NCBI GenBank assembly: GCA_964035575.1
Contig: OZ037838.1
Coordinates: 1,054,001-1,118,000, forward strand
Reading direction: 5' to 3'
DNA length: 64,000 nucleotides
Source of the DNA: Rhynchopus sp. YZ270_cl-10
Lineage: Eukaryota
This document shows positions 851 to 42,362 of the stretch, piece by piece. The position numbers were made by a program, and so were the translations under genes. How positions within the stretch are numbered: the first letter of the stretch is position 1; every line of letters begins with the position of its first letter. The notes beneath the pieces were generated by a model. The model ran no database searches. It was given only the letters and a program-made list of their open reading frames with translations, and was not told where the DNA came from.

Positions 851-1987
851 ATGGATGTGACCTTTGTGCTGGAAGAGTCAGGCGTGACTGCGACAGTGGA
901 GGTGCCGTGCGAGGCGGACGTTGCAGCGGCAAAGGAGGTTGCGTGCACGGCGCTTGCTGTCTCGCCTGCGTCTGTCGAGATGCGCATCGGCACGCAGGTG
1001 CTGGAGGGGACGTGCCGTCTGCAGGACACTGCGTTTGATGCAGGGGTGCAGGTTGTGCTTGCTCGCCCTCGCTTTGCCGACATCAAGTGTCCTGCTGAGT
1101 ACAGTCTAGAAATGCCAGATTTAAAGTATCAAGCGAATATAGTTCACGTATTGCTGTCTCCTTGTGGAGCACTCTGCCTCTTTACACAGAAGCAAGGCTA
1201 TATCACCGGCCTCGATACAGAAACCTTCAGCCCTGCCTTCAAGTTCAAAGTAGACTTTGAAGTGTACGGTGTGCCTGCCATCTCACGGTGCAAGACACGC
1301 TGCTACCTGCCGTGCAAGGAAGGCGTACACGAGGTTGCGCTTCCGGGTGGGGAGGTGCTCCGCAAAGTTGACGGACCCTCCTCCGCAGTGTTTGCGTGTG
1401 GCGGTGTTGTTATCTCGTTTGAAGGCGACATTGGCGTCTCTGTGTATGACGAAGACCTGACATTGCTCCGCTCTCTCTCGCACAAAGGCTGTGAGGGAGC
1501 GGCAGTGTCGGACTGTGGTGGATGGGTGATCACCTCCTCCGATTCCGAGTCCGACAACGATGGCACCGCTCGTCTGTGGGATGTGAACACAGGTGAAGCT
1601 GTGGCATGTGTGCCTGCGGAGGGGTTATGCCAAGTGGCTCTTTCACGGTCTGCCTCTGTCTTTGCTGTGGAGGGGGAGGAAAACACCGTGCAGCTCTATG
1701 ATTGGAGTGGTGCGGCTCTTCGCAGCGTTGATGTGGGTGGGGATATTGAGAGCATGCAGTTCTCCCCGTGTGGGAAGTACCTTGTGGTCAATATCTCGAA
1801 CATGATGTCTGATTTTTGTTGGGACTTCGACCTTCACCAGTATGATGTGGCGACCATGTCCTGTGTGCGTGTGATTAAGAATGCAAGCAGTTCATCGTTT
1901 GCGATATCCCCATGTTCACGTGTGGTTGTGTTTGGCGAAGGCTCCTCCATTTTCACCAGACATCTGTACCCACACAACAGTGAGTGA
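851..1987 (+). CDS. Ubiquitin-like domain + WD40-like 7-blade beta-propeller protein, copy 1
   Basis: ATG at 851 (MDVTFVLEESG...). 70-aa N-terminus with beta-grasp pattern ending L..G..L.DT......V.L, no terminal GG. Then repeated WD-like blades (ARLWDVNTGE, VQLYDWSG, MQFSPCGKYLVV, HQYDVAT). Confidence 0.85.
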   Translation: MDVTFVLEESGVTATVEVPCEADVAAAKEVACTALAVSPASVEMRIGTQVLEGTCRLQDTAFDAGVQVVLARPRFADIKCPAEYSLEMPDLKYQANIVHVLLSPCGALCLFTQKQGYITGLDTETFSPAFKFKVDFEVYGVPAISRCKTRCYLPCKEGVHEVALPGGEVLRKVDGPSSAVFACGGVVISFEGDIGVSVYDEDLTLLRSLSHKGCEGAAVSDCGGWVITSSDSESDNDGTARLWDVNTGEAVACVPAEGLCQVALSRSASVFAVEGEENTVQLYDWSGAALRSVDVGGDIESMQFSPCGKYLVVNISNMMSDFCWDFDLHQYDVATMSCVRVIKNASSSSFAISPCSRVVVFGEGSSIFTRHLYPHNSE

Positions 1988-2078
1988 TGTTTCGCGAGGG
2001 GTGGGAGGGTGGTGACACCATAACGACTACCACTAACTCAAAAGACATTGCGCCCCCTTTCCCCCTTTTTTCTTGCGT

Positions 2079-2418
2079 CACACCTTACCTATACACCCCA
2101 CAGGCACAAACCCATGGAGATCTATTGTGAAGGTGAACTCTGTGGGAGGACGGGATGTGTGGAGGTCTTACGGACAGCTCCTCTTCCTGTTCCCCTGAAG
2201 GTGCCGAGGTGATCTACACCTCAGTCAAGACACTGCCCGGCAACCGCTGCATCGCCTGCGTCTTCGGCGCAATCGAACTCTGGGACACCGAGAGCCGCAC
2301 CCTCATACGCACCCTGAAGCGCAGTGACAGAGAACGCTTCTGGCAAGACCGTGACTCCGACAGCAGCATCGACGACTTTGAATACGCAACCTGCGACGTC
2401 TTTGGGTCCATCTGCGTC
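2079..2418 (+). pseudogene. Internally deleted fragment of the type-2 Ubl-propeller gene (15637-16949)
   Basis: The 5' leader and ATG (MEIYCEGELCGRTGCVEV) are joined directly to the internal DSSSSCSPEGAEVIY...GSICV segment, near-identical to ~16463-16727. Confidence 0.85.
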
Positions 2419-2587: not shown

Positions 2588-3709
2588 ATGATGGATGTGA
2601 CCTTTGTGCTGGAAGAGTCAGGCGTGACTGCGACAGTGGAGGTGCCGTGCGAGGCGGACGTTGCAGCGGCAAAGGAGGTTGCGTGCACGGCGCTTGCTGT
2701 CTCGCCTGCGTCTGTCGAGATGCGCATCGGCACGCAGGTGCTGGAGGGGACGTGCCGTCTGCAGGACACTGCGTTTGATGCAGGGGTGCAGGTTGTGCTT
2801 GGCCGTCGCTTGGCCGACATCAAGTGTCCTGCTGAGTACAGTGTACCACCGCATACGGAACACTTTTTTTTGTCGCTGTCTCCTTGTGGAACGCTTTGCG
2901 TTTATTCCCATAAGGACATGTCCACTCGTGTTGGTGGCTTTGACACAGAAACTTTCGACACTGCCTTCGAGTTTGAAATCGATTTATCTGGTCGAGGTCC
3001 GCCTGCCATCTCACGGTGCAAGACACGCTGCTACATGGCGTGCAAAGAAGGTCTGCACGAGGTTGCGCTTCCGGGTGGGGAGGTGGTCCGCAAAGTCGAC
3101 GGCGACTCAAGGTCAGTGTTCGCTTGTGGTGGTGTTGTTGTCTCGAAGGGAAACAATGGCGTCTCTGTGTATGACGAAGACCTGACGTTGCTTCGCTTTC
3201 TCTCGCATGAAATGTGCACTAGGGTGGCAGCAGCTGACTGTGGTGGGTGGGTGATCACCTCCTCCTCCGTGGAGAAGAAGGCACGTCTGTGGGATGTGAA
3301 CACAGGTGAAGCTGTGGCATGTGTGTCTCTGGGGTGGTGGTACGAAGTGGCGCTTTCACGGTCTGCCTCTGTCTTTGCTGTGGTGGAGGAAAACACCGTG
3401 CACCTCTATGACTGGAGTGGTGCGACTCTTCACAGTGTTGATGTGGATGGGGATGTCGGGGACATGCAGTTCACCCCGTGTGGGAAGTACCTTGTGGTGG
3501 GGGTAAAGTCGGAATATGTTAACGACAAAGGTTGGACTATTGATAAAACATTCCTGCAACAGTATGATGTGGCGACCATGTCCTGTGTGCGTGTGATACC
3601 ATGCAACAGTTCATGGTTTGCGATATCGCCTTGTTCACGCGTTGTTGTGGTTATGCAATCAGATGGCGTCATTGCGACTAGACAACTGCACCCACACAAC
3701 AGTGAGTGA
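2588..3709 (+). CDS. Ubl + beta-propeller protein, copy 2
   Basis: Intact 373-aa ORF with the same Ubl domain and propeller framework as copy 1. Confidence 0.85.
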   Translation: MMDVTFVLEESGVTATVEVPCEADVAAAKEVACTALAVSPASVEMRIGTQVLEGTCRLQDTAFDAGVQVVLGRRLADIKCPAEYSVPPHTEHFFLSLSPCGTLCVYSHKDMSTRVGGFDTETFDTAFEFEIDLSGRGPPAISRCKTRCYMACKEGLHEVALPGGEVVRKVDGDSRSVFACGGVVVSKGNNGVSVYDEDLTLLRFLSHEMCTRVAAADCGGWVITSSSVEKKARLWDVNTGEAVACVSLGWWYEVALSRSASVFAVVEENTVHLYDWSGATLHSVDVDGDVGDMQFTPCGKYLVVGVKSEYVNDKGWTIDKTFLQQYDVATMSCVRVIPCNSSWFAISPCSRVVVVMQSDGVIATRQLHPHNSE

Positions 3710-4070: not shown

Positions 4071-5150
4071 ATGGATGTGACCTTTGTGCTGGAAGAGTCA
4101 GGTGTGACTGCGACAGTGGAGGTGCCGTGCGAGGCGGACGTTGCAGCGGCAAAGGAGGTTGCGTGCACGGCGCTTGCTGTCTCGCCTGCGTCTGTCGAGA
4201 TGCGCATCGGCACGCAGGTGCTGGAGGGGACGTGCCGTCTGCAGGACACTGCGTTTGATTCAGGGGTGCAGGTTGTGCTTGCCCGCCGCTTTGCCGACAT
4301 CAAGTGTCCTGCTGAGTACAATACAACTCGTAAGGGAAACTCGTCACTGTCGCGTTGTGGAACACTCTGCGTCTATAGTAGCATCGATGGGCATGTTGGC
4401 GGTTTCGACACAGAAACCTTCGACACTGTCTTCTCGTTCAAGGTGGACACACAAAGTGTGTTCGGTCCCCCTGCCATCTCGCAGTGCAAGACACGCTGCT
4501 ATTTGCCGTGTTTGAACCACCTTCTCGAGGTTGCGCTTCCGGGTGGGGAGGTGCTCCGCAAAGTCGATAGCATTTCAGAGTCAATGTTTGCGTGTGGCAA
4601 TGTTGTTGTCTCGAAGGGTGAAGACGGGGTCTCTGTGTATGACGAAGACCTGACGTTGCTCCGCTCTCTCTCGCACGAAGAGTGCACGACCACGGCAGTG
4701 TCGGACTGTGGTGGGTGGGTGCTCACCTCCTCCAACAAGGAGAACAACGCACGTCTGTGGGATGTGAACACAGGTGAAGCTGTGGCATGTGTGCCTTCTG
4801 GGTTGCTGCCTACAGTGGCGCTTTCACGGTCTGGCTCTGTCTTTGCTGTGGAGGGGGAGAATGACAACGTGCAGCTCTATGACTGGAGTGGTGCGGCTCT
4901 TCGCAGTGCTGATGTGGATGGGAGTATCCAGGGCATGCAGTTCACCCCGTGTGGGAAGTACCTTGTGGTAAGGAATATAGACGAGCTGCACCAGTATGAT
5001 GTGGCGACAATGTCCTGTGTGCGTGTGATCCCGCATGGGAGAGTCATGTCCTTCGCGATATCGCCATGTTCACGTGTTGTTGTGGCTATGGAACGAAAAG
5101 GCGTCATTGCGACAAGACATCTGTACCCACACAACAGGAGGGGGGGATAA
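4071..5150 (+). CDS. Ubl + beta-propeller protein, copy 3 (C-terminus supplied by inserted element)
   Basis: Family ATG at 4071. Ends HNRRGG* instead of HNSE* because a TIR element begins at ~5138. Confidence 0.85.
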   Translation: MDVTFVLEESGVTATVEVPCEADVAAAKEVACTALAVSPASVEMRIGTQVLEGTCRLQDTAFDSGVQVVLARRFADIKCPAEYNTTRKGNSSLSRCGTLCVYSSIDGHVGGFDTETFDTVFSFKVDTQSVFGPPAISQCKTRCYLPCLNHLLEVALPGGEVLRKVDSISESMFACGNVVVSKGEDGVSVYDEDLTLLRSLSHEECTTTAVSDCGGWVLTSSNKENNARLWDVNTGEAVACVPSGLLPTVALSRSGSVFAVEGENDNVQLYDWSGAALRSADVDGSIQGMQFTPCGKYLVVRNIDELHQYDVATMSCVRVIPHGRVMSFAISPCSRVVVAMERKGVIATRHLYPHNRRGG

Positions 5151-5925
5151 TTGTAGTGTCGGATAACTGTAAACTGGCGGATATAAAAAAAATTTTTATT
5201 TTGGCGCAACGTGACATAAAGCATGGATGTCCAAAGTACTTGAAGTACTTTTTTCGGATTTTTTATGGTACTTGAAGTACTTGACCCCCCTTTTTTTTCC
5301 TCTCAAAATGACAGTCAAGTACTTGAAGATTGATCAAGTACTTGACAGAAATCAAGTACTTGATACCCTGTTTTTTTTTCTCGTACTTTTTTACTTTTTT
5401 ACCCTCTGGCAGAGTCTGTCAAGTACTTGTTTTCGCAAAAAAAACGTCAAGTACTTGATCAAGTACCCACTTTTTTTTTGTACTTGATCAAGTACTTGAC
5501 GTTTTTTTTTGTGAAAAAAGTACTTGACAGAGGGAGAACAAGTAAAAAAGTACTAGAAAAAAAAATAGGGTGTCAAGTACTTGAAGTATCAAGTATTGGA
5601 TTTTTTGGGGGATCAAGTACTTGATATACTTCAAGTACTTTGGACATCCATGATAAAGGGGGGTGGGGGATAAAACAATTATCCCCCGTTTTTTCTCTCC
5701 CATTTTGTTTTATTTTATCCCCCACTACAGTTATCCCCCATTTCCCACACCGCGTTTTTGGTGTGGATTTTCCTTGGGGATGGGGATATTCAGGTGGGAA
5801 AAAGGAGATTTTTTTTTTTTATCCCCCGCTACAACTATCCCCCATTTTTTGAGAAGAAAAAACTGGCGATATTTTTTATTTTATCCGCCATTCTACAGTT
5901 ATCCCCCACTACAATTATCCCTCCC
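5138..5925. mobile_element. Non-autonomous TIR element (GGGATAA-motif rich), ends approximate
   Basis: Left gggataattgtagtgtcggataactgta vs right tacagttatcccccactacaattatccc (inverted). Many internal TTATCCCC motifs. No clear TSD. Confidence 0.6.
5222..5652. mobile_element. MITE with CA...TG ends and 6-bp TSD, nested in previous element
   Basis: TIR CATGGATGTCCAAAGTACTTGAAGTA at both ends, flanked by ATAAAG on both sides. Interior packed with AAGTACTT palindromes. Confidence 0.85.
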
Positions 5926-6309
5926 CCCCCCTTTTAGGCAGAGGCAGGGGAGAAAACAGACTGTCCAGTCAGTGTGGTTTTACTTAGTGTTCCAGTTTGG
6001 TACCCAGCTGGTTCTGGAGGGGGGGCGATGCTTTCTTTTTTTTCGGGGACATGGCACTTGTGACATATCTGAGGAAATCTTTTAGTCTACGTGAAGACGA
6101 TTCTCGTGCTCCTCACTTCTCCCCCACACTATGTCAATACAACAGGTTAGACCGTTTGGTCTGGCAGGGTTTGGGGTTTCTTCTTATTTCTCTCAGTTCA
6201 ATCTTGAACTATTTCGAGAGGATCTTTTATATTTTTTTCGACAAGAAAAAAAAAAGTGTGCTCTGGATGAGGAAGCGTTCCAACTTTTCAATATCTCCCC
6301 CATTTTTCT

Positions 6310-6762: not shown

Positions 6763-7102
6763 TCACACCTTACCTATACACCCCACAGGCACAAGCCATG
6801 GAGATCTATTGTGAAGGTGAACTCTGTGGGAGGACGGGATGTGTGGAGGTCTTACGGACAGCCCCTCTTCCTGTTCCCCTGAAGGTGCCGAGGTGATCTA
6901 CACCTCAGTCAAGACACTGCCCGGCAACCGCTGCATCGCCTGCGTCTTCGGCGCAATCGAACTCTGGGACACCGAGAGCCGCACCCTCATACGCACCCTG
7001 AAGCGCAGTGACAGAGAACGCTTCTGGCAAGACCGTGACTCCGACAGCAGCATCGACGACTTTGAGTACGCAACCTGCGACGTCTTTGGGTCCATCTGCG
7101 TC
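6763..7102 (+). pseudogene. Internally deleted fragment of the type-2 Ubl-propeller gene
   Basis: Same deletion junction and content as 2079-2418. Confidence 0.85.
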
Positions 7103-7271: not shown

Positions 7272-8384
7272 ATGATGGATGTGACCTTTGTGCTGGAAGA
7301 GTCAGGCGTGACTGCGACAGTGGAGGTGCCGTGCGAGGCGAAAGTTGCAGCGGCAAAGGAGGTTGCGTGCACGGCGCTTGCTGTCTCGCCTGCGTCTGTC
7401 GAGATGCGCATCGGCACGCAAGTGCTGGAGGGGACGTGCCGTCTGCAGGACACTGCGTTTGATTCAGGGGTGCAGGTTGTGCTTGCCCGCCGCTTTGCTA
7501 ACATCAAGTGTCCTGCTGAGTACACTACAGAGCCGCAATCGACGTTGTCACTGTCGCGTTGTGGAACGCTCTGCGTCCATAGGAACGAGAGTGGGGACGT
7601 TGGCGGTTTTGACACAGAAACCTTCGACACTGTCTTCTCGTTCAAAGTGGACAATGAAGTGCGCGGTCGGCATGCCATCTCGCAGTGCAAGACACGCTGC
7701 TACCTGGCGTGCGATGAATACCTTCTCGAGGTTGCGCTTCCGGGTGGGGAGGTGCTCCGCAAAGTCAACGGCTCCTCGCACTCAGTGTTCGCGTGTGGCA
7801 ATGTTGTTGTCTCGAAGGGCACAGACGGCGTCTCTGTGTATGACGAAGACCTGACGTTGCTCCGCTCTCTCTCGCACGGGGAGTGCAGGGGCGCGGCAGT
7901 TTCAGACTGTGGTGGGTGGGTGATCACCTCCTCCAACGATGGTACAGCCGTATGTCTGTGGGATGTGAACACAGGTGTTACTGTGGCATGTGTGCATGAG
8001 TTGTGGTGTGAACAGGCGCTTTCACGGTCTGGCTCTGTCTTTGCAGCGGGGGCAAACAACACCGTGCACCTCTATGATTGGAGTGGTGCGGCTCTTCGCA
8101 GTGTTGATGTGGGTGGGGATGTGGTTCTCCATGGCATGCAGTTCACCCCGTGTGGGAAGTACCTTGTGGTGATGATAGAGGTTGCGGAGGGTACCCAGGA
8201 GTTTGGAAGTATACACCTGCACCAGTATGATGTGGCGACCATGTCCTGTGTGCGTGTGATACCGCCAATCTCAGTCTCCTACTGGGACTCCTTTGTGATA
8301 TCGCCGTGTTCGCGTGTTGTTATGATTATGCAACAGGAGGGCGTCATTGCGACAAGGCATCTGTACCCACACAACAGTGAGTGA
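7272..8384 (+). CDS. Ubl + beta-propeller protein, copy 4
   Basis: Intact 370-aa ORF, family framework. Confidence 0.85.
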   Translation: MMDVTFVLEESGVTATVEVPCEAKVAAAKEVACTALAVSPASVEMRIGTQVLEGTCRLQDTAFDSGVQVVLARRFANIKCPAEYTTEPQSTLSLSRCGTLCVHRNESGDVGGFDTETFDTVFSFKVDNEVRGRHAISQCKTRCYLACDEYLLEVALPGGEVLRKVNGSSHSVFACGNVVVSKGTDGVSVYDEDLTLLRSLSHGECRGAAVSDCGGWVITSSNDGTAVCLWDVNTGVTVACVHELWCEQALSRSGSVFAAGANNTVHLYDWSGAALRSVDVGGDVVLHGMQFTPCGKYLVVMIEVAEGTQEFGSIHLHQYDVATMSCVRVIPPISVSYWDSFVISPCSRVVMIMQQEGVIATRHLYPHNSE

Positions 8385-8635: not shown

Positions 8636-9760
8636 ATGATGGATGTGACCTTTGTGCTGGAAGAGTCAGGCGTGACTGCGACAGTGGAGGTGCCGTGCGA
8701 GGCGGACGTTGCAGCGGCAAAGGAGGTTGCGTGCACGGCGCTTGCTGTCTCGCCTGCGTCTGTCGAGATGCGCATCGGCACGCAGGTGCTGGAGGGGACA
8801 TGCCGTCTGCAGGACACTGCGTTTGATGCAGGGGTGCAGGTTGTGCTTGCCTGTCCTCGCTTTGCTGACATCAAGTGTCCTGCTAAGAACAGTGTGTGCG
8901 ACAATATCCAAGGCATCGTGCAAAATGTATCACTGTCTCCTTGTGGAACGCTCTGCCTCATCGTGACTGAAGATGAAGGTTTTTCTTGTGTAGGCTTTGA
9001 CACAGAAACCTTCAACACTGCCTTCAAGTTTGAAATCGAAGATTACGGCTTCGGCCCGGGACCTGCCATCTCACGGTGCAAGACACACTGCTACCTTGCA
9101 GGTGTGGATCACTTACTCAAACTTGCGCTTCCGGGTGGGGAGGAGCTCCGCAAAGTGGACCGCCTCTCGAGGGCAGTCTTCGCGTGTGGCGGTGTTGTTG
9201 TCTCCCGACACAAAGACGGCATCTCTGTGTATGACGAAGACCTGACGTTGCTCCGCTCTCTCTCGCACGAGTGGTGCCGCAAAGCGGCAGTGTCGGACTG
9301 TGGTGGGTGGGTGATCACGTCCTCCGAAATCGGGTGCAACGCATATCTGTGGGATGTGAACACAGGTGAAGCTGTGGCATGTGTGCCTGCGGGGGGGTTA
9401 TGCCAAGTGGCGCTTTCACGGCGTGCTTCTGTCTTTGCTGTGGAGGGGCAGAATGACAACGTGCAGCTCTATGATTGGAGTGGTGCGGCTCTTCGCAGTG
9501 TTGACGTAGGTGACGGCATCGAGAGCATTCAGTTCACCCCGTGTGGGAAGTACCTTGTGGTCAATATCTCTTACATGGTATCTGATTATGATTGGAACGA
9601 CGACCTTCACCAGTATGATGTGGCGAACACGTCCTGTGTGCGTGTGATTAAGAATATCAGTGGTTCATCGTTTGCGATATCCCCATGTTCACGTGTGGTT
9701 GTGTTTGGCGACGGCTCCTCCATTGTCACCAGACATCTGTACCCACACAACAGTGAGTGA
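8636..9760 (+). CDS. Ubl + beta-propeller protein, copy 5
   Basis: Intact 374-aa ORF, family framework. Confidence 0.85.
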   Translation: MMDVTFVLEESGVTATVEVPCEADVAAAKEVACTALAVSPASVEMRIGTQVLEGTCRLQDTAFDAGVQVVLACPRFADIKCPAKNSVCDNIQGIVQNVSLSPCGTLCLIVTEDEGFSCVGFDTETFNTAFKFEIEDYGFGPGPAISRCKTHCYLAGVDHLLKLALPGGEELRKVDRLSRAVFACGGVVVSRHKDGISVYDEDLTLLRSLSHEWCRKAAVSDCGGWVITSSEIGCNAYLWDVNTGEAVACVPAGGLCQVALSRRASVFAVEGQNDNVQLYDWSGAALRSVDVGDGIESIQFTPCGKYLVVNISYMVSDYDWNDDLHQYDVANTSCVRVIKNISGSSFAISPCSRVVVFGDGSSIVTRHLYPHNSE

Positions 9761-9849: not shown

Positions 9850-9983
9850 TCACACCTTACCTATACACCCCACAGGCACAAGCCATGGAGATCTATTGTG
9901 AAGGTGAACTCTGTGGGAGGACGGGATGTGTGGAGGTCCTACCGACAGCCTCCTCCTCTGAAGGTGCCGAGGTGGTCTACACC
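9850..9983 (+). pseudogene. Doubly deleted fragment of the type-2 Ubl-propeller gene
   Basis: Same 5' part and junction (ggaggtcctaccgacagc) as the other fragments, then cut off after gaggtggtctacacc. Confidence 0.75.
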
Positions 9984-10050: not shown

Positions 10051-11167
10051 ATGATGGATGTGACCTTTGTGCTGGAAGAGTCAGGCGTGACTGCGACAGT
10101 GGAGGTGCCGTGCGAGGCGGACGTTGCAGCGGCAAAGGAGGTTGCGTGCACGGCGCTTGCTGTCTCGCCTGCGTCTGTCGAGATGCGCATCGGCACGCAG
10201 GTGCTGGAGGGGACGTGTCGTCTGCAGGACACTGCGTTTGATTCAGGGGTGCAGGTTGTGCTTGCCCTCCGCTTTGCCGACATCAAGTGTCCTGCTGAGT
10301 ACAACGTCCGTGCAGAAGGAAAGTTGCTGTCGCGTTGTGGAACGCTCTGCATATACGTTTATCAAGGGAATGTTGGCGGCTTCAACACAGAAACCTTTTC
10401 CCGTGTCTTTGAGTTCGACATACCCGATATTTGGTCCAATGCGACTGCCATCTCGCAGTGCAAGACACGCTGCTACCTGCTGTGGAGGGGAGGCCTTCTC
10501 GAGATTGCGCTTCCGGGTGGGGAGGTGCTCCGCGAAGTCGACGGCACCTCGAGAGCAGTGTTCGTCTGTGGTGGTGTTGTTGTCTCCCAAGAGCGACAAC
10601 GATGGCGTCTCTGTGTATGACGAAGACCTGACGTTGCTCCGCTCTCTCTCGCACGAAGGGTGCAGCGACGTGGCAGTGGCAGACTGTGGTGGGTGGGTGA
10701 TCACCTCCTCCGAAAACGAGAGCAACGCACGTCTGTGGGATGTGAACACAGGTGAAGCTGTTGCATGTGTGCCTGCGGAGATGCAATGCGAAGTGGCGCT
10801 TTCACGGCGTGCTTCTGTCTTTGCTGTGACGGGGCGGAATAACACCGTGAAGCTCTATGATTGGAGTGGTGCGGCTCTTCGCAGTGTTGATGCACGTGAC
10901 TGCGCATGGAGCGGAGGCATCGACAGCGGTGGGGCTATGCAGTTCACCCCGTGTGGGAAGTACCTTGTGGTCAGGATATCTTACATGTCATCTGAAGATA
11001 ATTGCAACTACGACCTTCACCAGTATGATGTGGCGAACACGTCCTGTGTGCGTGTGATTGAGAATGTCAGTGGTGCATCGTTTGCGATATCCCCATGTTC
11101 ACGTGTGGTTGTGTTTGGCGAAGGGCCCATTTTCACCAGACATCTGTACCCACACAACAGTGAGTGA
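10051..11167 (+). pseudogene. Ubl + beta-propeller, copy 6, frameshifted
   Basis: Family sequence is split over two frames (ORFs 9757-10620 and 10124-11167). The shift lies in the variable loop at ~10588-10600 (gtctcccaagagcgacaacgatggc). Confidence 0.8.
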
Positions 11168-12555
11168 TGTTTCGCGAGGGGTGGGAGGGTGGTGACACCA
11201 TAACGACTACCACTAACTCAAAAGACATTGCGCCCCTTTTTTTTAGGTTTCCTTTTACATCTTCTGTTGTTGGCCGCAGGGTACTGCTTTCATCCAGCTG
11301 TGTGTCAGTCGGAGGTGCCTGCATTAAGAAATTCACTTTTTTTTTTTTTTTTTTGCTAAGGGTGGCACAACTTTTTTTTTCGTTTCCCGCTCGCTGACTC
11401 TGGGAAAAAAATGCGCGCGCGCGCAAAAAAAAAGTTTTAAAAAAAGTTTTGCCTGAAAAAAAGTCGACAAAAAAGTTGTGGGAACAGGGTGATCCTGTGG
11501 GCTTTTATACAAAATCGCCTCAGGGGCCCCAAAAACGGGTGACCCAAAACACAGTTCTTTAGCATTTCCGGAATCCGTCCAGAAAGTGGTGGGGTCAATC
11601 TCGAAAATTGGACAATTTTTTAACCACTTACTGGGGGGGGTCGAATAGTAGACCCCCCCTTTGAATAGTAGACCCCCCCCCTAAATTTTAGACTCCAATT
11701 TTTTTGACCCTATTTTAGGTGCTCGAAAGTGGATTCTGACCCCCATGTCCAGGTCACAAAAATGCCCGATGAGTCCAATAAAGCAACAGATTTCATGTTT
11801 TGAGTAGTTGTGGTAAAATGTGGAAAAAAAATTATACAGGGGGGGTCTACTATTCGGCCCCCCCCCAGTAAATTTTTGAGAATATGAGCGCCCATTTTCG
11901 GACAAAAAATGCTGCTCGAAAAAAATTTCCCCTGAAAATTTTTCAGCCCCAAAACATGCCGCGATTCGCATTTCCGGAATCTGTCCGCACTGTGGTGGGG
12001 TCAATTTGCAGAAATGGCCAAGTTCTTGGTTTTGGTCAAAATGAGTGTAAGGAAAAGGGGCCAAGGTAAACCCACAACTCAGATTTGCTCTCCTTGATGC
12101 TGAAACCATGAAAATGCGCGAAAACACCGGTATTTGCATTTCCGGAATGCGTCCGTTGTGTGGGGTCAATTTGCCGAAATGGACGAGTTTGTATAAATTT
12201 TGGTCAAAATCGTGTACAACCCCGGTGAAGAAAAAAATATTTTCACGAAAAAAAAACCCAAAATGTCCACCAGTACCCAGTACCCAGTACCGAAACTTTT
12301 TTTTCCACCAAACTTTTGGTGTGAACCGTTGTACGCGGTACAACCGCGGGAGACATACGGGCGAACCACGGGGAATTTGGAGGGGGTACCCCTTTTTATT
12401 TTTATTTTTCCCGTTTTTTGGTGTTTACTCTCACGGTGGTAAGGGTCACACAGAGTCACGGTTCTAACCGAGCGGGGTCGCAAAATTTTCTAATGCGCTG
12501 AATTATCCCAAAAAAGTGGTTTTCTCGGGGAAAATTTTTTTTCAACCCCTACAGA

Positions 12556-13320: not shown

Positions 13321-13322
13321 CT

Positions 13323-13673
13323 CTGTGTATACTGTGTATACTGTGTATACTGTGTATACTGTGTATACTGTGTATACTGTGTATACTGTGTATACTGTGT
13401 ATACTGTGTATACTGTGTATACTGTGTATACTGTGTATACTGTGTATACTGTGTATACTGTGTATACTGTGTATACTGTGTATACTGTGTATACTGTGTA
13501 TACTGTGTATACTGTGTATACTGTGTATACTGTGTATACTGTGTATACTGTGTATACTGTGTATACTGTGTATACTGTGTATACTGTGTATACTGTGTAT
13601 ACTGTGTATACTGTGTATACTGTGTATACTGTGTATACTGTGTATACTGTGTATACTGTGTATACTGTGTATA
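13323..13673. repeat. Perfect 9-mer satellite (CTGTGTATA)n, ~39 units
   Basis: Direct reading. Confidence 0.98.
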
Positions 13674-15636: not shown

Positions 15637-16949
15637 ATGGAGATCTATTATGAAGGTGAACTCTGTGGGAGGACGGGATGTGTGGAGGTCCCTGTGGATG
15701 GGAGTGTTGCTGTGCTGAAGGCACTTATCGCCGACGACGCTGGGCTGCCGAAGCGCGGCTGCCGAAGCGCGGGGTCGAATACTTCCTGGGCGACACACAG
15801 CTCACGGACGACACAGCCCTGCTGCAGGACACACACATTGCACAGCACGACAAGATCCGGCTTCGGTGCATTGGCTACCCTTCAGTGTGCGCGCCTCTCC
15901 TTCCACACGAGAGACGTGCCTGCTTTGCGCTGGCAATAAGCCCAGACAGCACTAAACTGATCATCTCCACCGCAAGCGAGAAGGCGGCCCTCTACGACAT
16001 CAACACTTCGGCTCTCCTCCGTGAGTACGAAACCGGCGTCACAGACTACGAGGAATTCCCCCAGGTGCTCTTCGCGCTGCACGCAACAACCCTTTTCTAC
16101 ACAGACTCTGCCTTGAAGCTCTATGTCACCGACTACAGTGCAGATGAAGAAGCGCGCGTCTTTCCCTTCGAAGGCGCGACGCACGGAATCGACAACATAA
16201 ACGAAACGCAGGTGGCGGTCATCGAAACCGTCGACGACAATGACAGCAGCATGCTTGCCATCTGGGACATCACCACGTTAACCCAGCTCCGCATCCTTTC
16301 CTGTCGGACGTTATCGGAGGAAACCTTTCAGTATTTTGGCGTCTCCGTGTCACCATGCGGTGAACACTGTGTTGTGGGTGGGTGGGAGAACATCACAATG
16401 ATTGATCTTGCGACAGGCGAGTCCACACCGCTCCTCCGGTCAACACAGGACACCGAGATCGCTACCGACAGCTCCTCCTCCTCCTCTTCCTGCTCCTCCT
16501 CCCCTGAAGGTGCCGAGGTGATCTACACCTCAGTCAAGACACTGCCCGGCAACCGCTGCATCGCCTGCGTCTTCGGCGCAATCGAACTCTGGGACACCGA
16601 GAGCCGCACCCTCATACGCACCCTGAAGCGCAGTGACAGAGAACGCTTCTGGCAAGACCGTGACTCCGACAGCAGCATCGACGACTTTGAGTACGCAACC
16701 TGCGACGTCTTTGGGTCCATCTGCGTCTCGGTCCACATGGGCGCGCAGGAGTTTTGTGTATGGAACCTTGACACCGGGGAGAGCCTTTCAAAACAAAAGG
16801 GCACAATCCCAATGCCCCTCTTCGTCCGTGCAAGCCCCTGCGGAACGTTTTGGGTGTGGGTAGGTGCGTCCCAGGAGGAAGACGACTCAGACTCTGACGA
16901 ACAAGATGCTCCAGTGGCCTCCGTTGAAATGTGGAGAAATGCTGCCTGA
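15637..16949 (+). pseudogene. Type-2 Ubl + WD40-like beta-propeller gene, frameshifted by a 14-nt tandem duplication
   Basis: MEIYYEGELCGRTGCVEVPVDGSVAVLKALIADDAGLPKR continues in another frame as GVEYFLGDTQLTDDTALLQDTHIAQHDKIRL (Ubl pattern), then WD-like blades (AALYDINT, LAIWDITT, IELWDTES, FCVWNLDTGE). ggctgccgaagcgc is duplicated at 15743-15770. Confidence 0.8.
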
Positions 16950-32194: not shown

Positions 32195-33368
32195 ATGGAT
32201 GTGACCTTTGTGCTGGAAGAGTCAGGCGTGACTGCGACAGTGGAGGTGCCGTGCGAGGCGGACGTTGCAGCGGCAAAGGAGGTTGCGTGCACGGCGCTTG
32301 CTGTCTCGCCTGCGTCTGTCGAGATGCGCATCGGCACGCAGGTGCTGGAGGGGACGTGCCGTCTGCAGGACACTGCGTTTGATGCAGGGGTGCAGGTTGT
32401 GCTTGCCCGCCCTCGCTTGGCCGACATCAAGTGTCCTGCTCAGTACAGTGTGTGCGACAATGCAACGAGGTGGATGAGCTACTTGTCACTCTCGCGTTGT
32501 GGAACGCTCTGCGTCTATCGTGACCGGTGTGGGTACGTTGGCGGTTTTGACACAGAAACCTTCGACACTGTCTTCTCGTTCAAAGTGGACAATGAAGTGC
32601 GCGGTCCGCCTGCCATCTCGCAGTGCAAGACACGCTGTTATCTGTCGTGTGGGGATTGCTCTCTCGAGGTTGCGCTTCCAGCCGGGGAGGTGCTCCGCAA
32701 AGTCGACATCTCGGTTTCATTACAGACGCATGGCAATGTCGTTGTCTCTTGCTCTGAAGACAGCGTCTCTATATATGGCGAAGACCTGACGTTGCTCCGC
32801 TCTCTCTTGCACGAAGAGCGTAAGGGTGTGGCAGTATCGGACTGTGGTGGGTGGGTGATCACCTCCAGTGAGGACGACGTACTTCTGTGGGATGTGAACA
32901 CAGGTGAAGCTGTGGTATGTATGCCGATCGAGGGGGAGGAGAGATGTTGGGCGGTGGCTCTTTCACGGTCTGCCTCTGTCTTTGCTGTGGCGGGCTGGGT
33001 GGAGGGGGAGGACGACACCACTGAGGAAAAGATCGTGCAGCTATGATTGGAGTGGTGCGGCTCTTCGCAGTGTTGATGTGGGTGGGGTTGTCTATGGCAT
33101 GGAGTTCACCCCGTGTGGGAAGTACCTTGTGGTGAGGGTGGTTGTTGCGGAATTTATGGATGATGAAGACACCTATGATCCTGATGGCTATTACTATGAG
33201 CACAATGCATACCTGCGCCAGTATGATGTAGCGACCATGTCCTGTGTGCGTGAGATGCCGCAAAAAACCGAGGATGGTGCATTTACGATATCGCCGTGTT
33301 CACGTGTTGTTGTGGTCACGCAATCAGATGGCGTCATTGTGACCCGTACTCTGGTTAGCAATGTGTGA
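32195..33368 (+). pseudogene. Ubl + beta-propeller, copy 7, frameshifted
   Basis: Family ATG at 32195. gtgcagctatgattgg at ~33036-51 lacks 2 nt relative to the family gtgcagctctatgattgg. The remainder continues in ORF 32904-33368. Confidence 0.8.
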
Positions 33369-33451: not shown

Positions 33452-34249
33452 TTTTCAACTTACCTTCCTTCACCCCCCTGTAAGGGCAACCGTAGGTGAA
33501 GTAAGGTATAGTATTGAAATCGATGTGGGGGGGGAGTAAAGGGTCAATTTTACAAAACCAGATTTTGAGGAAAATTTTAGCCGAAAATGGGCCCCACGTA
33601 TAAGCAACCGGGCTCATATTTCTCAAAATTTAAGTGGTCAAAAAATTGTCCAATTTTCGAGATTGACCCCACCACTGCACGGGCGGAGCCCAAAAATGCA
33701 AATAAGGACCCTTTTTAATTTTCAACTTACCTTCCTTCACCCCCCTGTAAGGGCAACCGTAGGTGAAGTAAGGTATAGTATTGAAATCGATGTGGGGGGG
33801 GGAGTAAAGGGTCAATTTTACAAAACCAGATTTTGAGGAAAATTTTAGCCGAAAATGGGCCCCACGTATAAGCAACCGGGCTCATATTTCTCAAAATTTA
33901 AGTGGTCAAAAAATTGTCCAATTTTCGAGATTGACCCCACCACTGCACGGGCGGAGCCCAAAAATGCAAATAAGGACCCTTTTCAACTTACCTTCCTTCA
34001 CCCCCCTGTAAGGGCAACCGTAGGTGAAGTAAGGTATAGTATTGAAATCGATGTGGGGGGGGAGTAAAGGGTCAATTTTACAAAACCAGATTTTGAGGAA
34101 AATTTTAGCCGAAAATGGGCCCCACGTATAAGCAACCGGGCTCATATTTCTCAAAATTTAAGTGGTCAAAAAATTGTCCAATTTTCGAGATTGACCCCAC
34201 CACTGCACGGGCGGAGCCCAAAAATGCAAATAAGGACCCTTTTTAATTT
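33452..34249. repeat. Three head-to-tail copies of a ~265-bp unit
   Basis: Unit starts (ttttcaacttaccttcc) at ~33452, ~33719 and ~33980. Near-identical copies. Confidence 0.92.
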
Positions 34250-36356: not shown

Positions 36357-37526
36357 ATGATGGATGTGACCTTTGTGCTGGAAGAGTCAGGCGTGACTGC
36401 GACAGTGGAGGTGCCGTGCGAGGCGAACGTTGCAGCGGCAAAGGAGGTTGCGTGCACGGCGCTTGCTGTCTCGCCTGCGTCTGTCGAGATGCGCATCGGC
36501 ACGCAGGTGCTGGAGGGGACGTGCCGTCTGCAAGACACTGCGTTTGGCGCAGGGGTGCAGGTTGTGCTTACCCGCCCTCGCTTTGCCGACATCAAGTGTC
36601 CTGCTGAGTACGATACACAGGGCACCTTGCAAAATTTCTCACTGTCTCCTTGTGGAACGCTCTGCCTCGTTGTCGTGGCTGTCGATGCACGTATTGCCTG
36701 TGTAGGCTTCGACACAGAAACCTTCAACACTGCCTTCGAGTTTGACTTCGGACGTAATTGCCTCGGAGCACCTGCCATCCTGACTGCCATTTCGCAGTGC
36801 AAGACACTCTGCTACGTGGCGTGTGTGGATCACCTTCTCGAGCTTGCGCTTCCGGGGTGGGGAGGTGCTCCGCAAAGTTACAAGACCCTCGACAGCAGTG
36901 TTTGCCCGCGGTGGTGTTGTTGTCTCGCCGGCATAGACGGCGTCTCTGTGTATGACGAAGACCTGACGTTGCTCCGCTCTCTCTCGCACGAAGGGTGCCG
37001 CAGCATTTATGGAGCGGCAGTGTCGGACTGTGGTGGGTGGGTGATCACCTCCTCCGAGAAGAACACACGTCTGTGGGATGTGAACACAGGTGAAGCTGTG
37101 GCATGTGTGGAAAGCATGCCTCCGCGAGCGTGGGAGTTAAAGCTAGCGCTTTCACGGTCTGCCTCTGTCTTTGCTGTGGGTTGCAATCAAGAAGTGCAGC
37201 TCTATCATTGGAGTGGTGCGGCTCTTGGCAACATTAAAAAGCCGTCTCGCAAGTACCTTCTCGATGGCGTGCAGTTCACTCCCTGTGGGAAGTACGTCAT
37301 CGTTGACTTTAGGAAAGCATCAAGGTCTGAGGACGAAACTTTCCTCCTCCAACAGTATGATCTGGCGACCATGTCCTGTGTGAGTGTGATACGAAAATGC
37401 TGGAGTGAGTTTGTGATATCACCGTGTTCACGTGTGGTTATGTACGAGTCAGGAGAAAGTGCCGCCCTTGTGACGAGGCATCTGTACCCACTACTTCAAG
37501 CCAGCAGGAAACGCCGCAGGAAGTGA
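36357..37526 (+). CDS. Ubl + beta-propeller protein, copy 8 (internal compensated frameshift, basic C-terminal tail)
   Basis: Family ATG at 36357 and ORF open throughout. ~36856-36933 reads in a shifted frame. Ends LLQASRKRRRK. Confidence 0.75.
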   Translation: MMDVTFVLEESGVTATVEVPCEANVAAAKEVACTALAVSPASVEMRIGTQVLEGTCRLQDTAFGAGVQVVLTRPRFADIKCPAEYDTQGTLQNFSLSPCGTLCLVVVAVDARIACVGFDTETFNTAFEFDFGRNCLGAPAILTAISQCKTLCYVACVDHLLELALPGWGGAPQSYKTLDSSVCPRWCCCLAGIDGVSVYDEDLTLLRSLSHEGCRSIYGAAVSDCGGWVITSSEKNTRLWDVNTGEAVACVESMPPRAWELKLALSRSASVFAVGCNQEVQLYHWSGAALGNIKKPSRKYLLDGVQFTPCGKYVIVDFRKASRSEDETFLLQQYDLATMSCVSVIRKCWSEFVISPCSRVVMYESGESAALVTRHLYPLLQASRKRRRK

Positions 37527-37867
37527 CGTCCTTGTGACACGACATCTGTACCCCTACTGAGTGATGCAGTCCACCCTGTGTGGGAAGTACCTCCTCGCTG
37601 TCGCTGAGTACTGCGGTGTGTTGCTGTCGTGCGTTGCATCAGTATTTGCGTTGCACCCTCGACCTACTAGCCTGTGAGGGAATTCATTTTCAGATATTTT
37701 GAGGATAACGACCACACCACCCTTTACCTCTCTTTTTCACTTTTGCTTTGTTAAAACCCTCTTCTGTTGGTGGAAACTACAGACACAACGAAACCATCAC
37801 AAACACACGAAACAACCCACACCTCATCTCCTTCCTAGCAGAGGTGGAACAAGAAGAAGACAAAACA

Positions 37868-38971: not shown

Positions 38972-39472
38972 TGTTTTTGTTTATATTTTTGTAAAGGCCA
39001 CCGCTTCTTCTTCTTCTTCTTGATGGTTTGTCATGCAAGGCATCGTCGACATCACAGGTGTTGCTGTGGCATGTATGCTGGTGGAGGGGTTGAATGTCGC
39101 GCTTGTGCGGTCTCTGCCTGGGCAGTCGTGTCTAGCGTTGTCATGTTTGTCTGTTGCACACAAGTAAGAAGAGAGACTCCAGGTCTCATTGGCGCTTGTT
39201 TTTCAAGAGTTTGTGTGTTGTTCTGCTCTTGTGAGTTGCTGTTAAAAGGAAACACAAACCTGCCTTCGAGCGGTTGTGCGCCTTCCCAGTTCACCACAGT
39301 ACGGGCAAGCCACGAGGTTTCTTTTCACCTCCTATGTATTTTCCGCAAGGTAATCTTTAAATTGCTTGCTTTGTCAGAGTTTGTTGAAACGCGTATTTAA
39401 CCCGCCAACCTTCTTATTTGTCGTTGCGAAGTGACCCCACCAACCATCAAACACAACAGACCCCTTAACAAT

Positions 39473-40588
39473 ATGATGGATGTGACCTTTGTGCTGGAAG
39501 AGTCAGGCGTGACTGCGACAGTGGAGGTGCCGTGCGAGGCGGACGTTGCAGCGGCAAAGGAGGTTGCGTGCACGGCGCTTGCTGTCTCGCCTGCGTCTGT
39601 CGAGATGCGCATCGGCACGCAGGTGCTGGAGGGGACGTGCCGTCTGCAGGACACTGCGTTTGATGCAGGGGTGCAGGTTGTGCTTGCCCGTCCTCGCGTT
39701 GCTGACATCAAGTGTCCTGCTGAGAAGGAAGTAGATGGGATGGTGCACAATCTCTCGTTGTCTCCTTGTGGAACGCTCTGCCTCGTTGCATGCGTGACTG
39801 ACGATGAACGTTTTGCCTGCGTAGGCTTTGACACAGAAACCTTCAACACTGCCTTCGAGTTTGACTTCGGACGTAATTGCTTCGGAGCACCTGCCATATC
39901 GAGATGCAAGACACGCTGCTACCTACCGTGTAGGCAAGACTTACGCAAGGTTGCGCTTCCGGGTGGGGAGGTACTCCGCAAAGTCGACGGCGACTTGTAC
40001 TCAGTGTTCGCGTGTGGCGGTGTTGTTGTCTCGAAGCACAAAGACGGGGTCTCTGTGTATGACGAAGACCTGACGTTGCTCCGCTCTTTCTCGCACAAAG
40101 GGTGCACCCAGTGGTGCGGCGCGGCAGTGTCGGACTGTGGTGGGTGGGTGATCACCTCGTCTCACAGTGAGAAGAAGACACGTCTGTGGGATGTGAAGAC
40201 AGGTGAAGCTGTGGCATGTGTGCCTATGTCAGGGTGTGATGTCGCACTGTCAAGGTCTGCCTCTGTCTTTGCTGTAGGGGGCTATGTGGATGAGGCATGG
40301 AGAGTGCAGCTCTACGGCTGGAGTGGTGCAGCTCTTCAGAACACCACTACCTCAGAGTTCTTTGACCTGCAATTTACCCCGTGTGGGAAGTACCTTGTGG
40401 TCAATGTACTTAGGAGTGGAGCAGCAGAGCTGCGACAGTATGATGTGGCGACTATGTCGTGTGTACTTGTGATCCCAGACGTCAAACGTACGTCGTTTGC
40501 GATATCACCGTGTTCGCGCGTGGTTGTGTTTGTATCATCCGAAAGCGACAGTATTGTAACAAGACATCTGTACCCCCACAACGAGTGA
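39473..40588 (+). CDS. Ubl + beta-propeller protein, copy 10
   Basis: Family ATG at 39473, intact. Confidence 0.85.
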   Translation: MMDVTFVLEESGVTATVEVPCEADVAAAKEVACTALAVSPASVEMRIGTQVLEGTCRLQDTAFDAGVQVVLARPRVADIKCPAEKEVDGMVHNLSLSPCGTLCLVACVTDDERFACVGFDTETFNTAFEFDFGRNCFGAPAISRCKTRCYLPCRQDLRKVALPGGEVLRKVDGDLYSVFACGGVVVSKHKDGVSVYDEDLTLLRSFSHKGCTQWCGAAVSDCGGWVITSSHSEKKTRLWDVKTGEAVACVPMSGCDVALSRSASVFAVGGYVDEAWRVQLYGWSGAALQNTTTSEFFDLQFTPCGKYLVVNVLRSGAAELRQYDVATMSCVLVIPDVKRTSFAISPCSRVVVFVSSESDSIVTRHLYPHNE

Positions 40589-41117
40589 TACGTCTTGCCA
40601 CCACACACCTATCCAGTGATGGCAGATCTGCATCCACAAGCAAGACACTGCAGACCACCTTGTCGCAGCCGAACACCACATCGCCTCCCGTCAGCGACAT
40701 CTTTTTACGGTTGGTTGCTCAAAGCTCGGCACAGAAGAAGCCCTCCGTCTGCACACGACGCACCTCGAGGCTGCAGCCACAGCAACAGCAAGGGTGCAGG
40801 CCGCAGAAGGAACGGAGCCTTTCCATGCGATTTCCCACCTCATTACCGATGATGAGCTTGTATGGAGGCAGAGCCACACTTCATCGACAGGTCGAGGTGT
40901 GTGCGTTTCACTGCTTGTGTTTTGATTGCTTTATTCTTAGTAGGGGTGCAGACAAAGGAAGAGTAGGAGGGCGGTTTCAATTTTAGTCTTATCTAGCCAC
41001 CCAAACAACGACCCCCATCCCTCGTCCCCTCTTTCCACGTGTCCACCCTCTCAGCTCCTTCAACTGTCCACCAAACAGAACATTAAATTGCATCACACCA
41101 ACACAGATCTCGAAACA

Positions 41118-42362
41118 ATGATGGATGTGACCTTTGTGCTGGAAGAGTCAGGCGTGACTGCGACAGTGGAGGTGCCGTGCGAGGCGAAGGTTGCAGCGGC
41201 AAAGGAGGTTGCGTGCACGGCGCTTGCTGTCTCGCCTGTGTCTGTCGAGATGCGCATCGGCACGCAGGTGCTGGAGGGGACGTGCCGTCTGCAGGACACT
41301 GCGTTTGATGCAGGGGTGCAGGTTGTGCTTGCCCGCCCTCGCTTGGCCGACATCAAGTGTCCTGCTGAGAAGGAAGTAGATGGGAACGTGACATCCTTGT
41401 CACTGTCGCGTTGTGGAACGCTGTGCATCTACCACAAGGCTATGGCGTTCAGACGCGGCTCCTGGAGTAACTATTGTGTTGGTGGCTTCGACACAGACAC
41501 CTTCGAAACCGTTTTCTCCTTTGCAGTGAAAGCTTGGAGCCTGCTCGGTCCGCCTGCCATCTCGCAGTGCAAGACACGCTGCTACCTGGCGTGCAACAGC
41601 ATTTTCAAGGTTGCGCTTCCGGGTGGGGAGGTGCTCCTCAAAATCGACGGTATTTCAGAGTCAGTGTTCGTCTGTGGCAATGTTGTTGTCTCCCAAGGCA
41701 AAGACGGCGTCTCTGTGTATGACGAAGACCTGACGTTACTCCGCTCTCTCTCGCACGAAGGTTGTATTAAAGCGGCCGTCTCGGACTGTGGTGGGTGGGT
41801 GGTCAGCTTCTCTTACACCGACAAGAACGCACGTGTGTGGGATGTGAACACAGGTGTTCACATTGCTGTGGCATGTGTGCCGGTGGTTCAATCCCAAACT
41901 ACTTTGGCACCGTCGCAACAGTGTGAAGTAGCTGTGTCGCGTTCTGCCTCGATGTTTGCTGTAGGATTCTCTCAAGGAGTGTACCATCGAGGAGGGTACA
42001 GAGGCGTACGTCTCTTTGATATGAGTGGCGCAGTTCTTCATGATGTTGACGTGGAGGGCGACTACCTGGGCATGCAGTTCACCCCGTGTGGGAAGTACCT
42101 TGTGTTGATGTCTTATGTAACTAATTCTGACGATGAAGAAGATGGCGGACCAGTGCTGAGCCAGTGGGATGTGGTGACCATGTCCCGTGTGCAAGGTACG
42201 GATGGTTACCGCGGGTTGTTTGCGATATCGCCGTGTTCTCGTGTGGCTTTGAGTGTACGCGAAGACTGCTTTAACTACATCTGTACAAATCATCTGTACC
42301 CTCATGAAGCAGTTAAGAAGGTGAAGAAGGCGGCACCCAAACAATGCCAAATGAAGCCTTGA
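41118..42362 (+). CDS. Ubl + beta-propeller protein, copy 11 (extended basic C-terminus)
   Basis: Family ATG at 41118, intact. Longer loops and tail HEAVKKVKKAAPKQCQMKP. Confidence 0.85.
   Translation: MMDVTFVLEESGVTATVEVPCEAKVAAAKEVACTALAVSPVSVEMRIGTQVLEGTCRLQDTAFDAGVQVVLARPRLADIKCPAEKEVDGNVTSLSLSRCGTLCIYHKAMAFRRGSWSNYCVGGFDTDTFETVFSFAVKAWSLLGPPAISQCKTRCYLACNSIFKVALPGGEVLLKIDGISESVFVCGNVVVSQGKDGVSVYDEDLTLLRSLSHEGCIKAAVSDCGGWVVSFSYTDKNARVWDVNTGVHIAVACVPVVQSQTTLAPSQQCEVAVSRSASMFAVGFSQGVYHRGGYRGVRLFDMSGAVLHDVDVEGDYLGMQFTPCGKYLVLMSYVTNSDDEEDGGPVLSQWDVVTMSRVQGTDGYRGLFAISPCSRVALSVREDCFNYICTNHLYPHEAVKKVKKAAPKQCQMKP

What the first reader, a model, noticed from the sequence alone, without database searches (positions are those of the whole stretch)
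851..42362. Constant-Ubl / variable-propeller gene array: candidate diversified recognition system linked to the ubiquitin machinery
Seen: 11 paralogs in two clusters. The first 210 nt (70-aa ubiquitin-like domain) differ by only about 0-5 nt between copies, synonymous sites included, yet the propellers differ heavily in patches. Established: integral Ubl domains without a terminal GG are docking modules (proteasome, p97/Cdc48, E3 complexes). Expanded adaptor families with a conserved docking domain and a fast-evolving binding domain (F-box and MATH-BTB in nematodes and plants) are associated with targeting foreign proteins. Inference: this may be an undescribed protist repertoire of intracellular receptors (no signal peptide or TM) that route variable targets, e.g. 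viral or endosymbiont proteins, to one fixed host partner.
Basis: partly seen in the sequence, partly recalled or inferred. Interest (0 to 1): 0.88.

Follow-up and report, generated by a model that had tools for sequence, protein, structure and literature searches.

The report
Variable-faced ubiquitin-like propeller gene family
A single-celled eukaryote carries well over a hundred genes that join an almost unchanging ubiquitin-like domain to a seven-bladed propeller whose binding face differs in nearly every copy, which likely makes them a home-grown set of intracellular binders for many, probably foreign, targets that would be handed to one shared cellular machine.

Summary
Observation confirmed and larger than reported. 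Eleven copies lie in the window (three with broken frames); at least 120 distinct relatives exist, 91 on the window's contig. The N-terminus is a beta-grasp fold without GG; the rest is a 7-bladed WD40 propeller. Variation sits on the top binding face: loop identity 32% against 92% for bottom loops and 97% for the Ubl. Silent divergence falls from about 1.0 in these loops to 0.02 in the Ubl, and copies are mosaics, so gene conversion homogenises the framework. Codon models give moderate support for positive selection in the loops (LRT 9-14). Two corrections: the Ubl's DNA identity mostly reflects conversion, not proof of one partner, and its Ile44 patch is not conserved, so classical proteasome docking is unlikely. 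Targets, partner, expression and lineage are untested. It works like fungal HET-E WD40 domains and F-box/BTB adaptors but is neither. The scan earlier noted top-face-variable WD40 arrays without a Ubl in another genome. I found no description in ten paper searches.

The parts
851..1987 (+). copy c01, 378 aa, intact; Ubl = 851-1060 (residues 1-70), propeller about residues 78-372
2591..3709 (+). copy c02, 372 aa, intact
4071..5150 (+). copy c03, 359 aa; last codons replaced by an inverted-repeat element that begins at 5137
7275..8384 (+). copy c04, 369 aa, intact
8639..9760 (+). copy c05, 373 aa, intact
10054..11167 (+). copy c06, frameshifted near 10590 (blade 3)
32195..33368 (+). copy c07, frameshifted near 33040 (blade 5)
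36360..37526 (+). copy c08, open 388-aa frame but with a compensated double frameshift at about 36855-36930 that scrambles about 23 residues
37868..38971 (+). copy c09, 367 aa, intact, long branch
39476..40588 (+). copy c10, 370 aa, intact
41121..42362 (+). copy c11, 413 aa, intact, most divergent propeller, basic tail
1..20 (+). probable last codons of a twelfth copy cut by the window edge; 112-215 matches the flank downstream of c10
   Evidence: translation; self-BLAST 112-215 to 40591-40694
15637..16949 (+). gene of a second, unrelated-propeller Ubl-WD40 type, frame broken by a 14-nt tandem duplication at 15743-15772; its Ubl is about 28% identical to the family's
2078..2418 (+). remnants of the second-type gene inside the repeated unit (also 6763-7102 and 9850-9983)
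42618..42680 (+). short propeller fragment at the end of the array (others at 37555-37592 and 39053-39091)

Best explanation
This is a tandem family of over a hundred genes that join a nearly constant ubiquitin-like domain to a WD40 propeller with a hypervariable top face, and it likely works as a repertoire of intracellular binders for many, probably foreign, proteins that would be passed to one shared host machine. Shown: the two folds, the family size, the confinement of variation to the 14 DA and BC loops, and homogenisation of the rest at DNA level with mosaic copies. Supported but not proven: diversifying selection on the loops. Inferred: frequent gene conversion between paralogues erases differences except where selection keeps loops different, and also shuffles loops into new combinations, with broken copies as possible donors; each protein binds its target on the top face; the invariant Ubl and the conserved bottom face contact a common partner of the protein-disposal system (an E3 ligase scaffold or an AAA-ATPase is likelier than the proteasome's own ubiquitin receptors, because the Ile44 patch is lost); the driver is conflict with viruses, intracellular bacteria or their effectors.
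For: Folds: Ubl model pLDDT 83.7, TM 0.87 and Z 12.8 to ubiquitin-fold proteins; propeller aligns over about 308 columns to G-beta/TLE/PRP19. Family: 120 of 120 listed hits 58-94% identical, 91 on the window's contig. Entropy in 113 non-window proteins: top loops 2.46 bits, bottom loops 0.27, strands 0.57, Ubl 0.09; 73 of 98 top columns above 2 bits against 0 of 57 bottom columns. Most loops have about 85-118 different strings among 121 proteins (BC3 69). dS 0.019 Ubl, 0.22 bottom, 0.35 strands, about 1.0 top; silent differences fall from 0.335 one codon from a loop to 0.016 beyond 15 codons, the divergence-peak pattern described in PMC3924837. 46-50% of informative site pairs fail the four-gamete test at every distance, nearest neighbours switch along the gene, blade distances correlate only -0.02 to 0.27, 5' and 3' flank types are uncoupled. 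Site models on top loops: M2a v M1a LRT 33; with free rate classes LRT 12.6 and 9.4; with multi-nucleotide changes 12.3 and 10.2, and 0 of 111 null simulations reached 11.6; strands 0.0 and bottom 2.4 as controls. The same DA and BC loops are the selected surface of fungal HET-E (PMC1805685, section 10).
Against: No target, partner or transcript was observed. Average omega of the top loops is about 1 (1.08) and pairwise pN/pS is 0.72-0.83, which relaxed constraint on old loops could also give. The site models use only 8 copies and a star tree that counts shared variants repeatedly: the Ubl itself gave LRT 6.1 from about two sites, omega estimates are unstable (2.5 to the bound) and site posteriors correlate weakly with entropy (rho 0.19, P 0.06). 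Top loops are the least constrained part of WD40 folds in general (own knowledge). The PHI-like test was not significant (P 0.33) and adjacency of shared loops was marginal (P 0.02). The 113 database proteins are the best scorers to the profile, which favours a consensus Ubl and framework. Three of 11 window copies are broken. The Ile44 patch is not conserved.
Confidence: 0.5

Rival explanations
1. Diversified binders, but the Ubl is not a route to degradation: it is an extraction handle or signalling contact (as the Ytm1/Rsa4 Ubl is for the Rea1 MIDAS domain), a cap on the propeller's own bottom face, or a decoy for pathogen ubiquitin-processing enzymes.
For: Ile44 patch replaced, domain strongly acidic (11 acidic, 4 basic in residues 1-72). 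Ubl+WD40 proteins with a known job use the Ubl as an AAA-ATPase handle (PMC4737154, passages). Ubls with low similarity to ubiquitin usually bind through the helix/beta2 groove (PMC7226360, passages). An NLE+WD40 cluster appears among weak Atlas leads (score 0.83).
Against: No NLE (PF08154) match at E up to 10; the profile's 60 best solved-structure hits are ubiquitin, engineered ubiquitin variants or close Ubls such as UBL4A.
Confidence: 0.2
2. Genomic drift: a dispensable gene amplified by unequal crossing-over; conversion homogenises long conserved tracts and the loops diverge only because they are unconstrained and too different to be converted.
For: Top-loop omega about 1 on average; 3 of 11 copies broken, arrays littered with transposons; lineage-specific plant F-box genes were read this way (PMC3030570, abstract only).
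Against: Strands and bottom loops are under purifying selection (omega 0.47 and 0.37, P<1e-4); a class with omega above 1 survives rate-variation and multi-hit nulls; near-invariant codons alternate with hypervariable ones inside loops; at least 120 full-length frames.
Confidence: 0.15
3. The repertoire reads self-made polymorphic ligands: kin or mating-type recognition, or antidotes in a conflict with selfish elements, as HET-E reads HET-C.
For: Closest evolutionary parallel, HET-E/HET-D, is an allorecognition system (PMC1805685, abstract and section 10).
Against: No linked polymorphic partner gene in the window; over a hundred specificities in one genome exceeds what a few allelic partners need (inference); no death or NACHT domain.
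Confidence: 0.12
4. A dedicated mutator or templated process rewrites the loops (hypermutation spilling into flanks) rather than selection under conversion.
For: Silent sites also peak at loops; multi-nucleotide changes improve the fit; loops vary in length.
Against: Flanks are of several unrelated types, implying old copies; near-invariant codons sit between hypervariable ones; no donor cassette or retroelement enzyme seen in the window.
Confidence: 0.03

Closest known systems
Podospora HNWD/NWD family (HET-E, HET-D), PMC1805685
   Same: WD40 propeller diversified in the d-a and b-c loops of the top face; concerted evolution plus positive selection; cytosolic recognition.
   Different: No NACHT or HET domain; conversion acts between whole paralogues position by position, not between near-identical repeats within a gene; over 120 genes against about 10; constant N-terminal Ubl.
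Nematode and plant F-box and MATH-BTB adaptors (as summarised in PMC4334554; drift reading in PMC3030570)
   Same: Conserved N-terminal docking-type domain, fast-evolving binding domain, tandem clusters, pseudogenes.
   Different: No F-box or BTB domain; the constant module is a Ubl; DNA-level homogenisation of the constant module; cullin link not shown.
Ytm1/WDR12 and Rsa4/NLE1 (PMC4737154)
   Same: Same architecture: N-terminal integral Ubl followed by a WD40 propeller (seven blades in Ytm1).
   Different: Those are conserved ribosome-assembly factors with an NLE-type Ubl that binds Rea1 MIDAS; here no NLE match, a massive family and a hypervariable face.
UBL shuttle factors (Rad23, Dsk2, Ddi1) and midnolin
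   Same: Integral Ubl without GG joined to a cargo-binding domain; these Ubls appear among fold matches.
   Different: No UBA domain; Ile44 patch not conserved; cargo domain is a diversified propeller. Their mechanisms are recalled, not read here.
MHC, plant R-gene and immunoglobulin clusters (PMC3924837)
   Same: Conversion among many paralogues with divergence peaks at selected sites and pseudogenes as possible donors.
   Different: Different folds; unicellular host; no somatic process shown.

Membership tests
Integral (type II) ubiquitin-like domain | beta-grasp fold of about 70 residues | tested here: met
   pLDDT 83.7; TM 0.87; Z 12.8, rmsd 1.6 over 75 residues; profile aligns to ubiquitin, single-domain E 0.009-0.16. 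No Pfam ubiquitin hit for the single sequence.
Integral (type II) ubiquitin-like domain | no C-terminal GG, embedded in a larger protein | tested here: met
   0 of 121 with GG at residues 68-80
Proteasome-docking UBL shuttles (Rad23/Dsk2 type) | Ile44-centred hydrophobic patch | tested here: not met
   By the ungapped alignment the patch positions 8 and 44 fall on E9 and R45; position 70 on A71 is extrapolated one residue beyond the aligned range; one printed alignment has a gap at this strand
Proteasome-docking UBL shuttles (Rad23/Dsk2 type) | UBA domain | tested here: not met
   no such Pfam match in 8 intact copies; model leaves no room
WD40 propeller proteins | seven four-stranded blades with velcro closure | tested here: met
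   best profile hits PkwA and WDR5; PF00400 scores 16-21 bits, under its cut-off of 27
Ytm1/WDR12, Rsa4/NLE1 | NLE-type Ubl (PF08154) | tested here: not met
   no match at E up to 10; neither protein among the 60 best hits shown
Ytm1/WDR12, Rsa4/NLE1 | conserved glutamate that binds Rea1 MIDAS | not testable with these tools
   no alignment to these Ubls was obtained
Fungal HNWD/NWD NLRs | NACHT and HET domains | tested here: not met
   359-413 aa proteins, only propeller matches
Fungal HNWD/NWD NLRs | near-identical WD repeats within a gene | tested here: not met
   blastn of c01 shows no internal repeat match
Fungal HNWD/NWD NLRs | diversification of d-a and b-c loops | tested here: met
   selection support moderate
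F-box / MATH-BTB cullin adaptors | F-box or BTB domain | tested here: not met
F-box / MATH-BTB cullin adaptors | constant docking domain, positively selected binding domain, birth-death | tested here: met
F-box / MATH-BTB cullin adaptors | binding to a cullin ligase | not testable with these tools
   no genome or partner sequence held

The most novel reading that the evidence does not exclude
A unicellular eukaryote has evolved an antibody-like intracellular repertoire: several hundred germline genes with a conversion-homogenised framework and 14 freely shuffled hypervariable loops on a WD40 face, each carrying a built-in ubiquitin-fold tag that delivers bound viral or bacterial proteins to a disposal machine, a new class of immune adaptor parallel to F-box and BTB proteins.
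Probability: 0.3. Interest if true: 0.9.

Novelty: new variant of a known kind. Interest (0 to 1): 0.74.

Why it matters
How free-living protists recognise viruses and intracellular bacteria is largely open. This family gives a concrete, testable candidate: one invariant domain for a pull-down that should name the downstream machine, and over a hundred natural variants of one binding face. It also shows the MHC-like pattern of conversion with divergence peaks at codon resolution in a unicellular genome, and is a natural library of WD40 binders with defined framework and variable positions.

Tried and rejected
No whole genome is held, so no direct census. One search reported 439 hits at E<=0.001 but listed 120; the other 319 were not seen and may include generic WD40s. 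The sensitive search of cluster representatives could not be run, so the range outside this organism is poorly tested. Relatives elsewhere: none confirmed among 87 metagenome and 55 viral pattern matches; 8 of 64 metagenome candidates were generic WD40s at 24-38% identity with no Ubl match. Atlas: best scores 0.84 (whole) and 0.82 (Ubl), leads only. No RNA holder listed. Summed contig depth over the Ubl is hundreds of times that of unique loops, but the tool states this is no copy number; one search listed only 3 variants, too few for dN/dS. Lineage: the p25-alpha search gave one unnamed relative and cluster look-ups gave no names; intronless same-strand genes suggest a euglenozoan-like protist, an inference only. 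Single-sequence Ubl searches against PDB and Pfam failed and the full-length model left residues 1-77 under pLDDT 50; the domain folded only alone, with an alignment that included the second-type Ubl. IQ-TREE omega values were not extracted, only likelihoods. One subset fit (20 sites, omega 70) was degenerate and is not used. Complex prediction of Ubl with propeller was not available. No Rfam match. Codon tests used 8 of 11 copies (broken ones left out); protein statistics used 121 sequences (8 window + 113 database; P0095 dropped for a shifted start, 6 duplicates of window copies removed). Paper searches listed no description of this family; six were aimed at that question (19, 34, 58, 61, 82, 93, plus 63), the organism's name was unknown, and subscription papers and supplements were not seen.
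Full report
Observation. The window is eukaryotic-looking DNA whose long intronless genes lie on the + strand. Eleven copies of the gene start at 851, 2591, 4071, 7275, 8639, 10054, 32195, 36360, 37868, 39476 and 41121. Their first 210 nt differ by 0-6 nt in 55 pairs, mean 2.9. Similarity begins at the start codon: identity is about 0.29 at -90 and -60 and 0.97-0.99 from the ATG to +210. Eight copies are intact; c06 and c07 are frameshifted and c08 has a compensated double frameshift. Contigs of public runs from two studies hold copy-specific loops unchanged.

Family size. A profile of nine copies found 439 proteins at E<=0.001; the 120 listed are 58-94% identical to c01, essentially full length and unnamed. 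By the contig lengths given, 91 lie on a 2,712,987-base contig (the length given for the window's own proteins), 24 on one of 456,684 and 5 on three others (counted by hand). I take them to be one organism because the Ubl is nearly identical; that the other contigs belong to the same assembly is inferred.

Folds. The full model gives seven four-stranded blades closed by a strand at 82-85 and matches G-beta, TLE1 and PRP19 over about 308 columns. The N-terminal domain folded alone at pLDDT 83.7 and matches ubiquitin, ISG15, SUMO and integral Ubls (TM up to 0.87; Z 12.8); these top rows are tied, so the fold names no partner. The profile aligns without gaps to ubiquitin. There is no GG (0 of 121). 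In that alignment the Ile44 patch positions are E9, R45 and, by one residue's extrapolation, A71, while Phe4, Lys27 and Asp58 equivalents are kept; the domain is acidic. PMC7226360 (passages seen) says Ubls close to ubiquitin use the Ile44 patch and divergent ones usually the helix/beta2 groove.

Where the variation is. Using strand limits from the model, the d-a and b-c loops (top face) average 2.46 bits in 113 non-window proteins, the a-b and c-d loops (bottom face) 0.27, strands 0.57 and the Ubl 0.09. Mean pairwise identity is 32%, 92%, 81% and 97% (1500 sampled pairs). All 14 top loops vary; 6785 of 7260 pairs share no identical loop. In eight disjoint close pairs 25% of top positions differ against 5% of bottom and 2.5% of Ubl positions. 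Section 10 of PMC1805685 (read) places the selected residues of HET-E in the same two loops and calls the top the protein-interaction platform.

How the pattern arises. Silent divergence among the eight intact copies is 0.019 in the Ubl, 0.22 bottom, 0.35 strands and about 1.0 top, and falls with distance from the nearest loop (0.335, 0.24, 0.18, 0.20, 0.19, 0.10, 0.10, 0.016). Protein-level selection cannot do that alone. About half of 123 informative sites' pairs are incompatible at every distance, nearest neighbours change along each gene, blades are nearly unlinked, the tree is star-like with 55 of 118 inner branches unresolved (quick tree), and one downstream flank type is joined to three different upstream types. 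A PHI-like test was not significant (P 0.33), as expected if linkage is lost even at short range, though homoplasy could contribute. This fits gene conversion with divergence peaks at selected sites (PMC3924837, passages seen). The uninterrupted Ubl is the longest convertible tract, so its near-identity is expected without special constraint. Its protein is under modest purifying selection (8 of 13 changes silent against 27-31% expected, P 0.01-0.02).

Selection. Strands and bottom loops have omega 0.47 and 0.37; top loops average 1.08 although they contain near-invariant residues. A class with omega above 1 is favoured against nulls with free rate classes (LRT 12.6, 9.4) and multi-nucleotide changes (12.3, 10.2); 0 of 111 simulations reached the observed 11.6; strands and bottom loops give 0.0 and 2.4. 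Against: eight sequences, saturation, a star tree that over-counts shared variants (the Ubl gave 6.1), unstable estimates, pairwise pN/pS 0.72-0.83. I rate diversifying selection at about 0.75.

Mechanism. Shown: constant Ubl, conserved bottom face, variable top face, homogenised and shuffled framework. [quoted passage not shown] The partner is likelier an E3 scaffold or AAA-ATPase than a proteasome ubiquitin receptor. Overall confidence 0.5. Rivals: Ubl as non-degradative handle, cap or decoy (0.2), drift (0.15; PMC3030570, abstract), self or kin recognition (0.12), a loop mutator (0.03).

Comparison and novelty. It works like HET-E in its surface and evolution and like F-box/BTB adaptors in its two-part design, and it shares the architecture of Ytm1 and Rsa4 (PMC4737154, passages seen), but it fails the defining tests of each. 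Two earlier scan notes describe top-face-variable WD40 arrays without a Ubl in another genome; I did not test them and they are not independent support. Verdict: real, a new variant of a known kind, interest 0.74.

Noticed in passing
window 15637-16949 +: A second Ubl-WD40 gene with an unrelated propeller, broken by a 14-nt duplication. The database holds one matching protein, P0123, that reads through this place, so an intact twin may lie elsewhere on the contig. Its Ubl has a weak Pfam ubiquitin match (E 0.23). It suggests the Ubl module is shared by more propeller families.
   Followed up: partly
c01 residues 105, 147, 183, 222, 307, 355: Six of seven a-b turns on the bottom face carry a nearly invariant cysteine (113-121 of 121); a ring that might bind metal, be modified or sense redox state.
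   Followed up: no
window 23183-24205 -: Intact Tc1/mariner-type transposase with inverted repeats at 22935-22981 and 24293-24339; its 90% cluster has 30 members on many contigs.
   Followed up: partly
window 11358-15213: About 3.85-kb element with terminal inverted repeats between c06 and the second-type gene, holding 5-nt and 9-nt satellites (12555-13675, 14398-14907).
   Followed up: partly
window 5137-5928: Nested MITE-like inverted-repeat elements that cut the last codons of c03.
   Followed up: partly
protein P0103 (2,712,987-base contig): A family member with a C-terminal extension of about 250 residues without a Pfam match; fusion or read-through not resolved.
   Followed up: no
window 851-1063, runs X1 and X2: Some contigs carry a more divergent Ubl (7-11 changes) continuing into unlike sequence, hinting at further subfamilies.
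   Followed up: no
window 27832-29229 +: 465-aa multi-membrane protein whose N-terminal part resembles an F-box motif by eye (recalled pattern); Pfam gave only a weak DUF1378 match.
   Followed up: no
window 42676-45405 + and 53548-58116 +: A 909-aa membrane protein with no Pfam or PDB match, cyclase-like by eye only; and a 1522-aa multi-membrane protein with a C-terminal kinase domain.
   Followed up: partly
window 19620-20597 +; 33452-34249: p25-alpha domain protein with one unnamed relative at 59%; three-copy 260-nt tandem repeat just after c07.
   Followed up: partly
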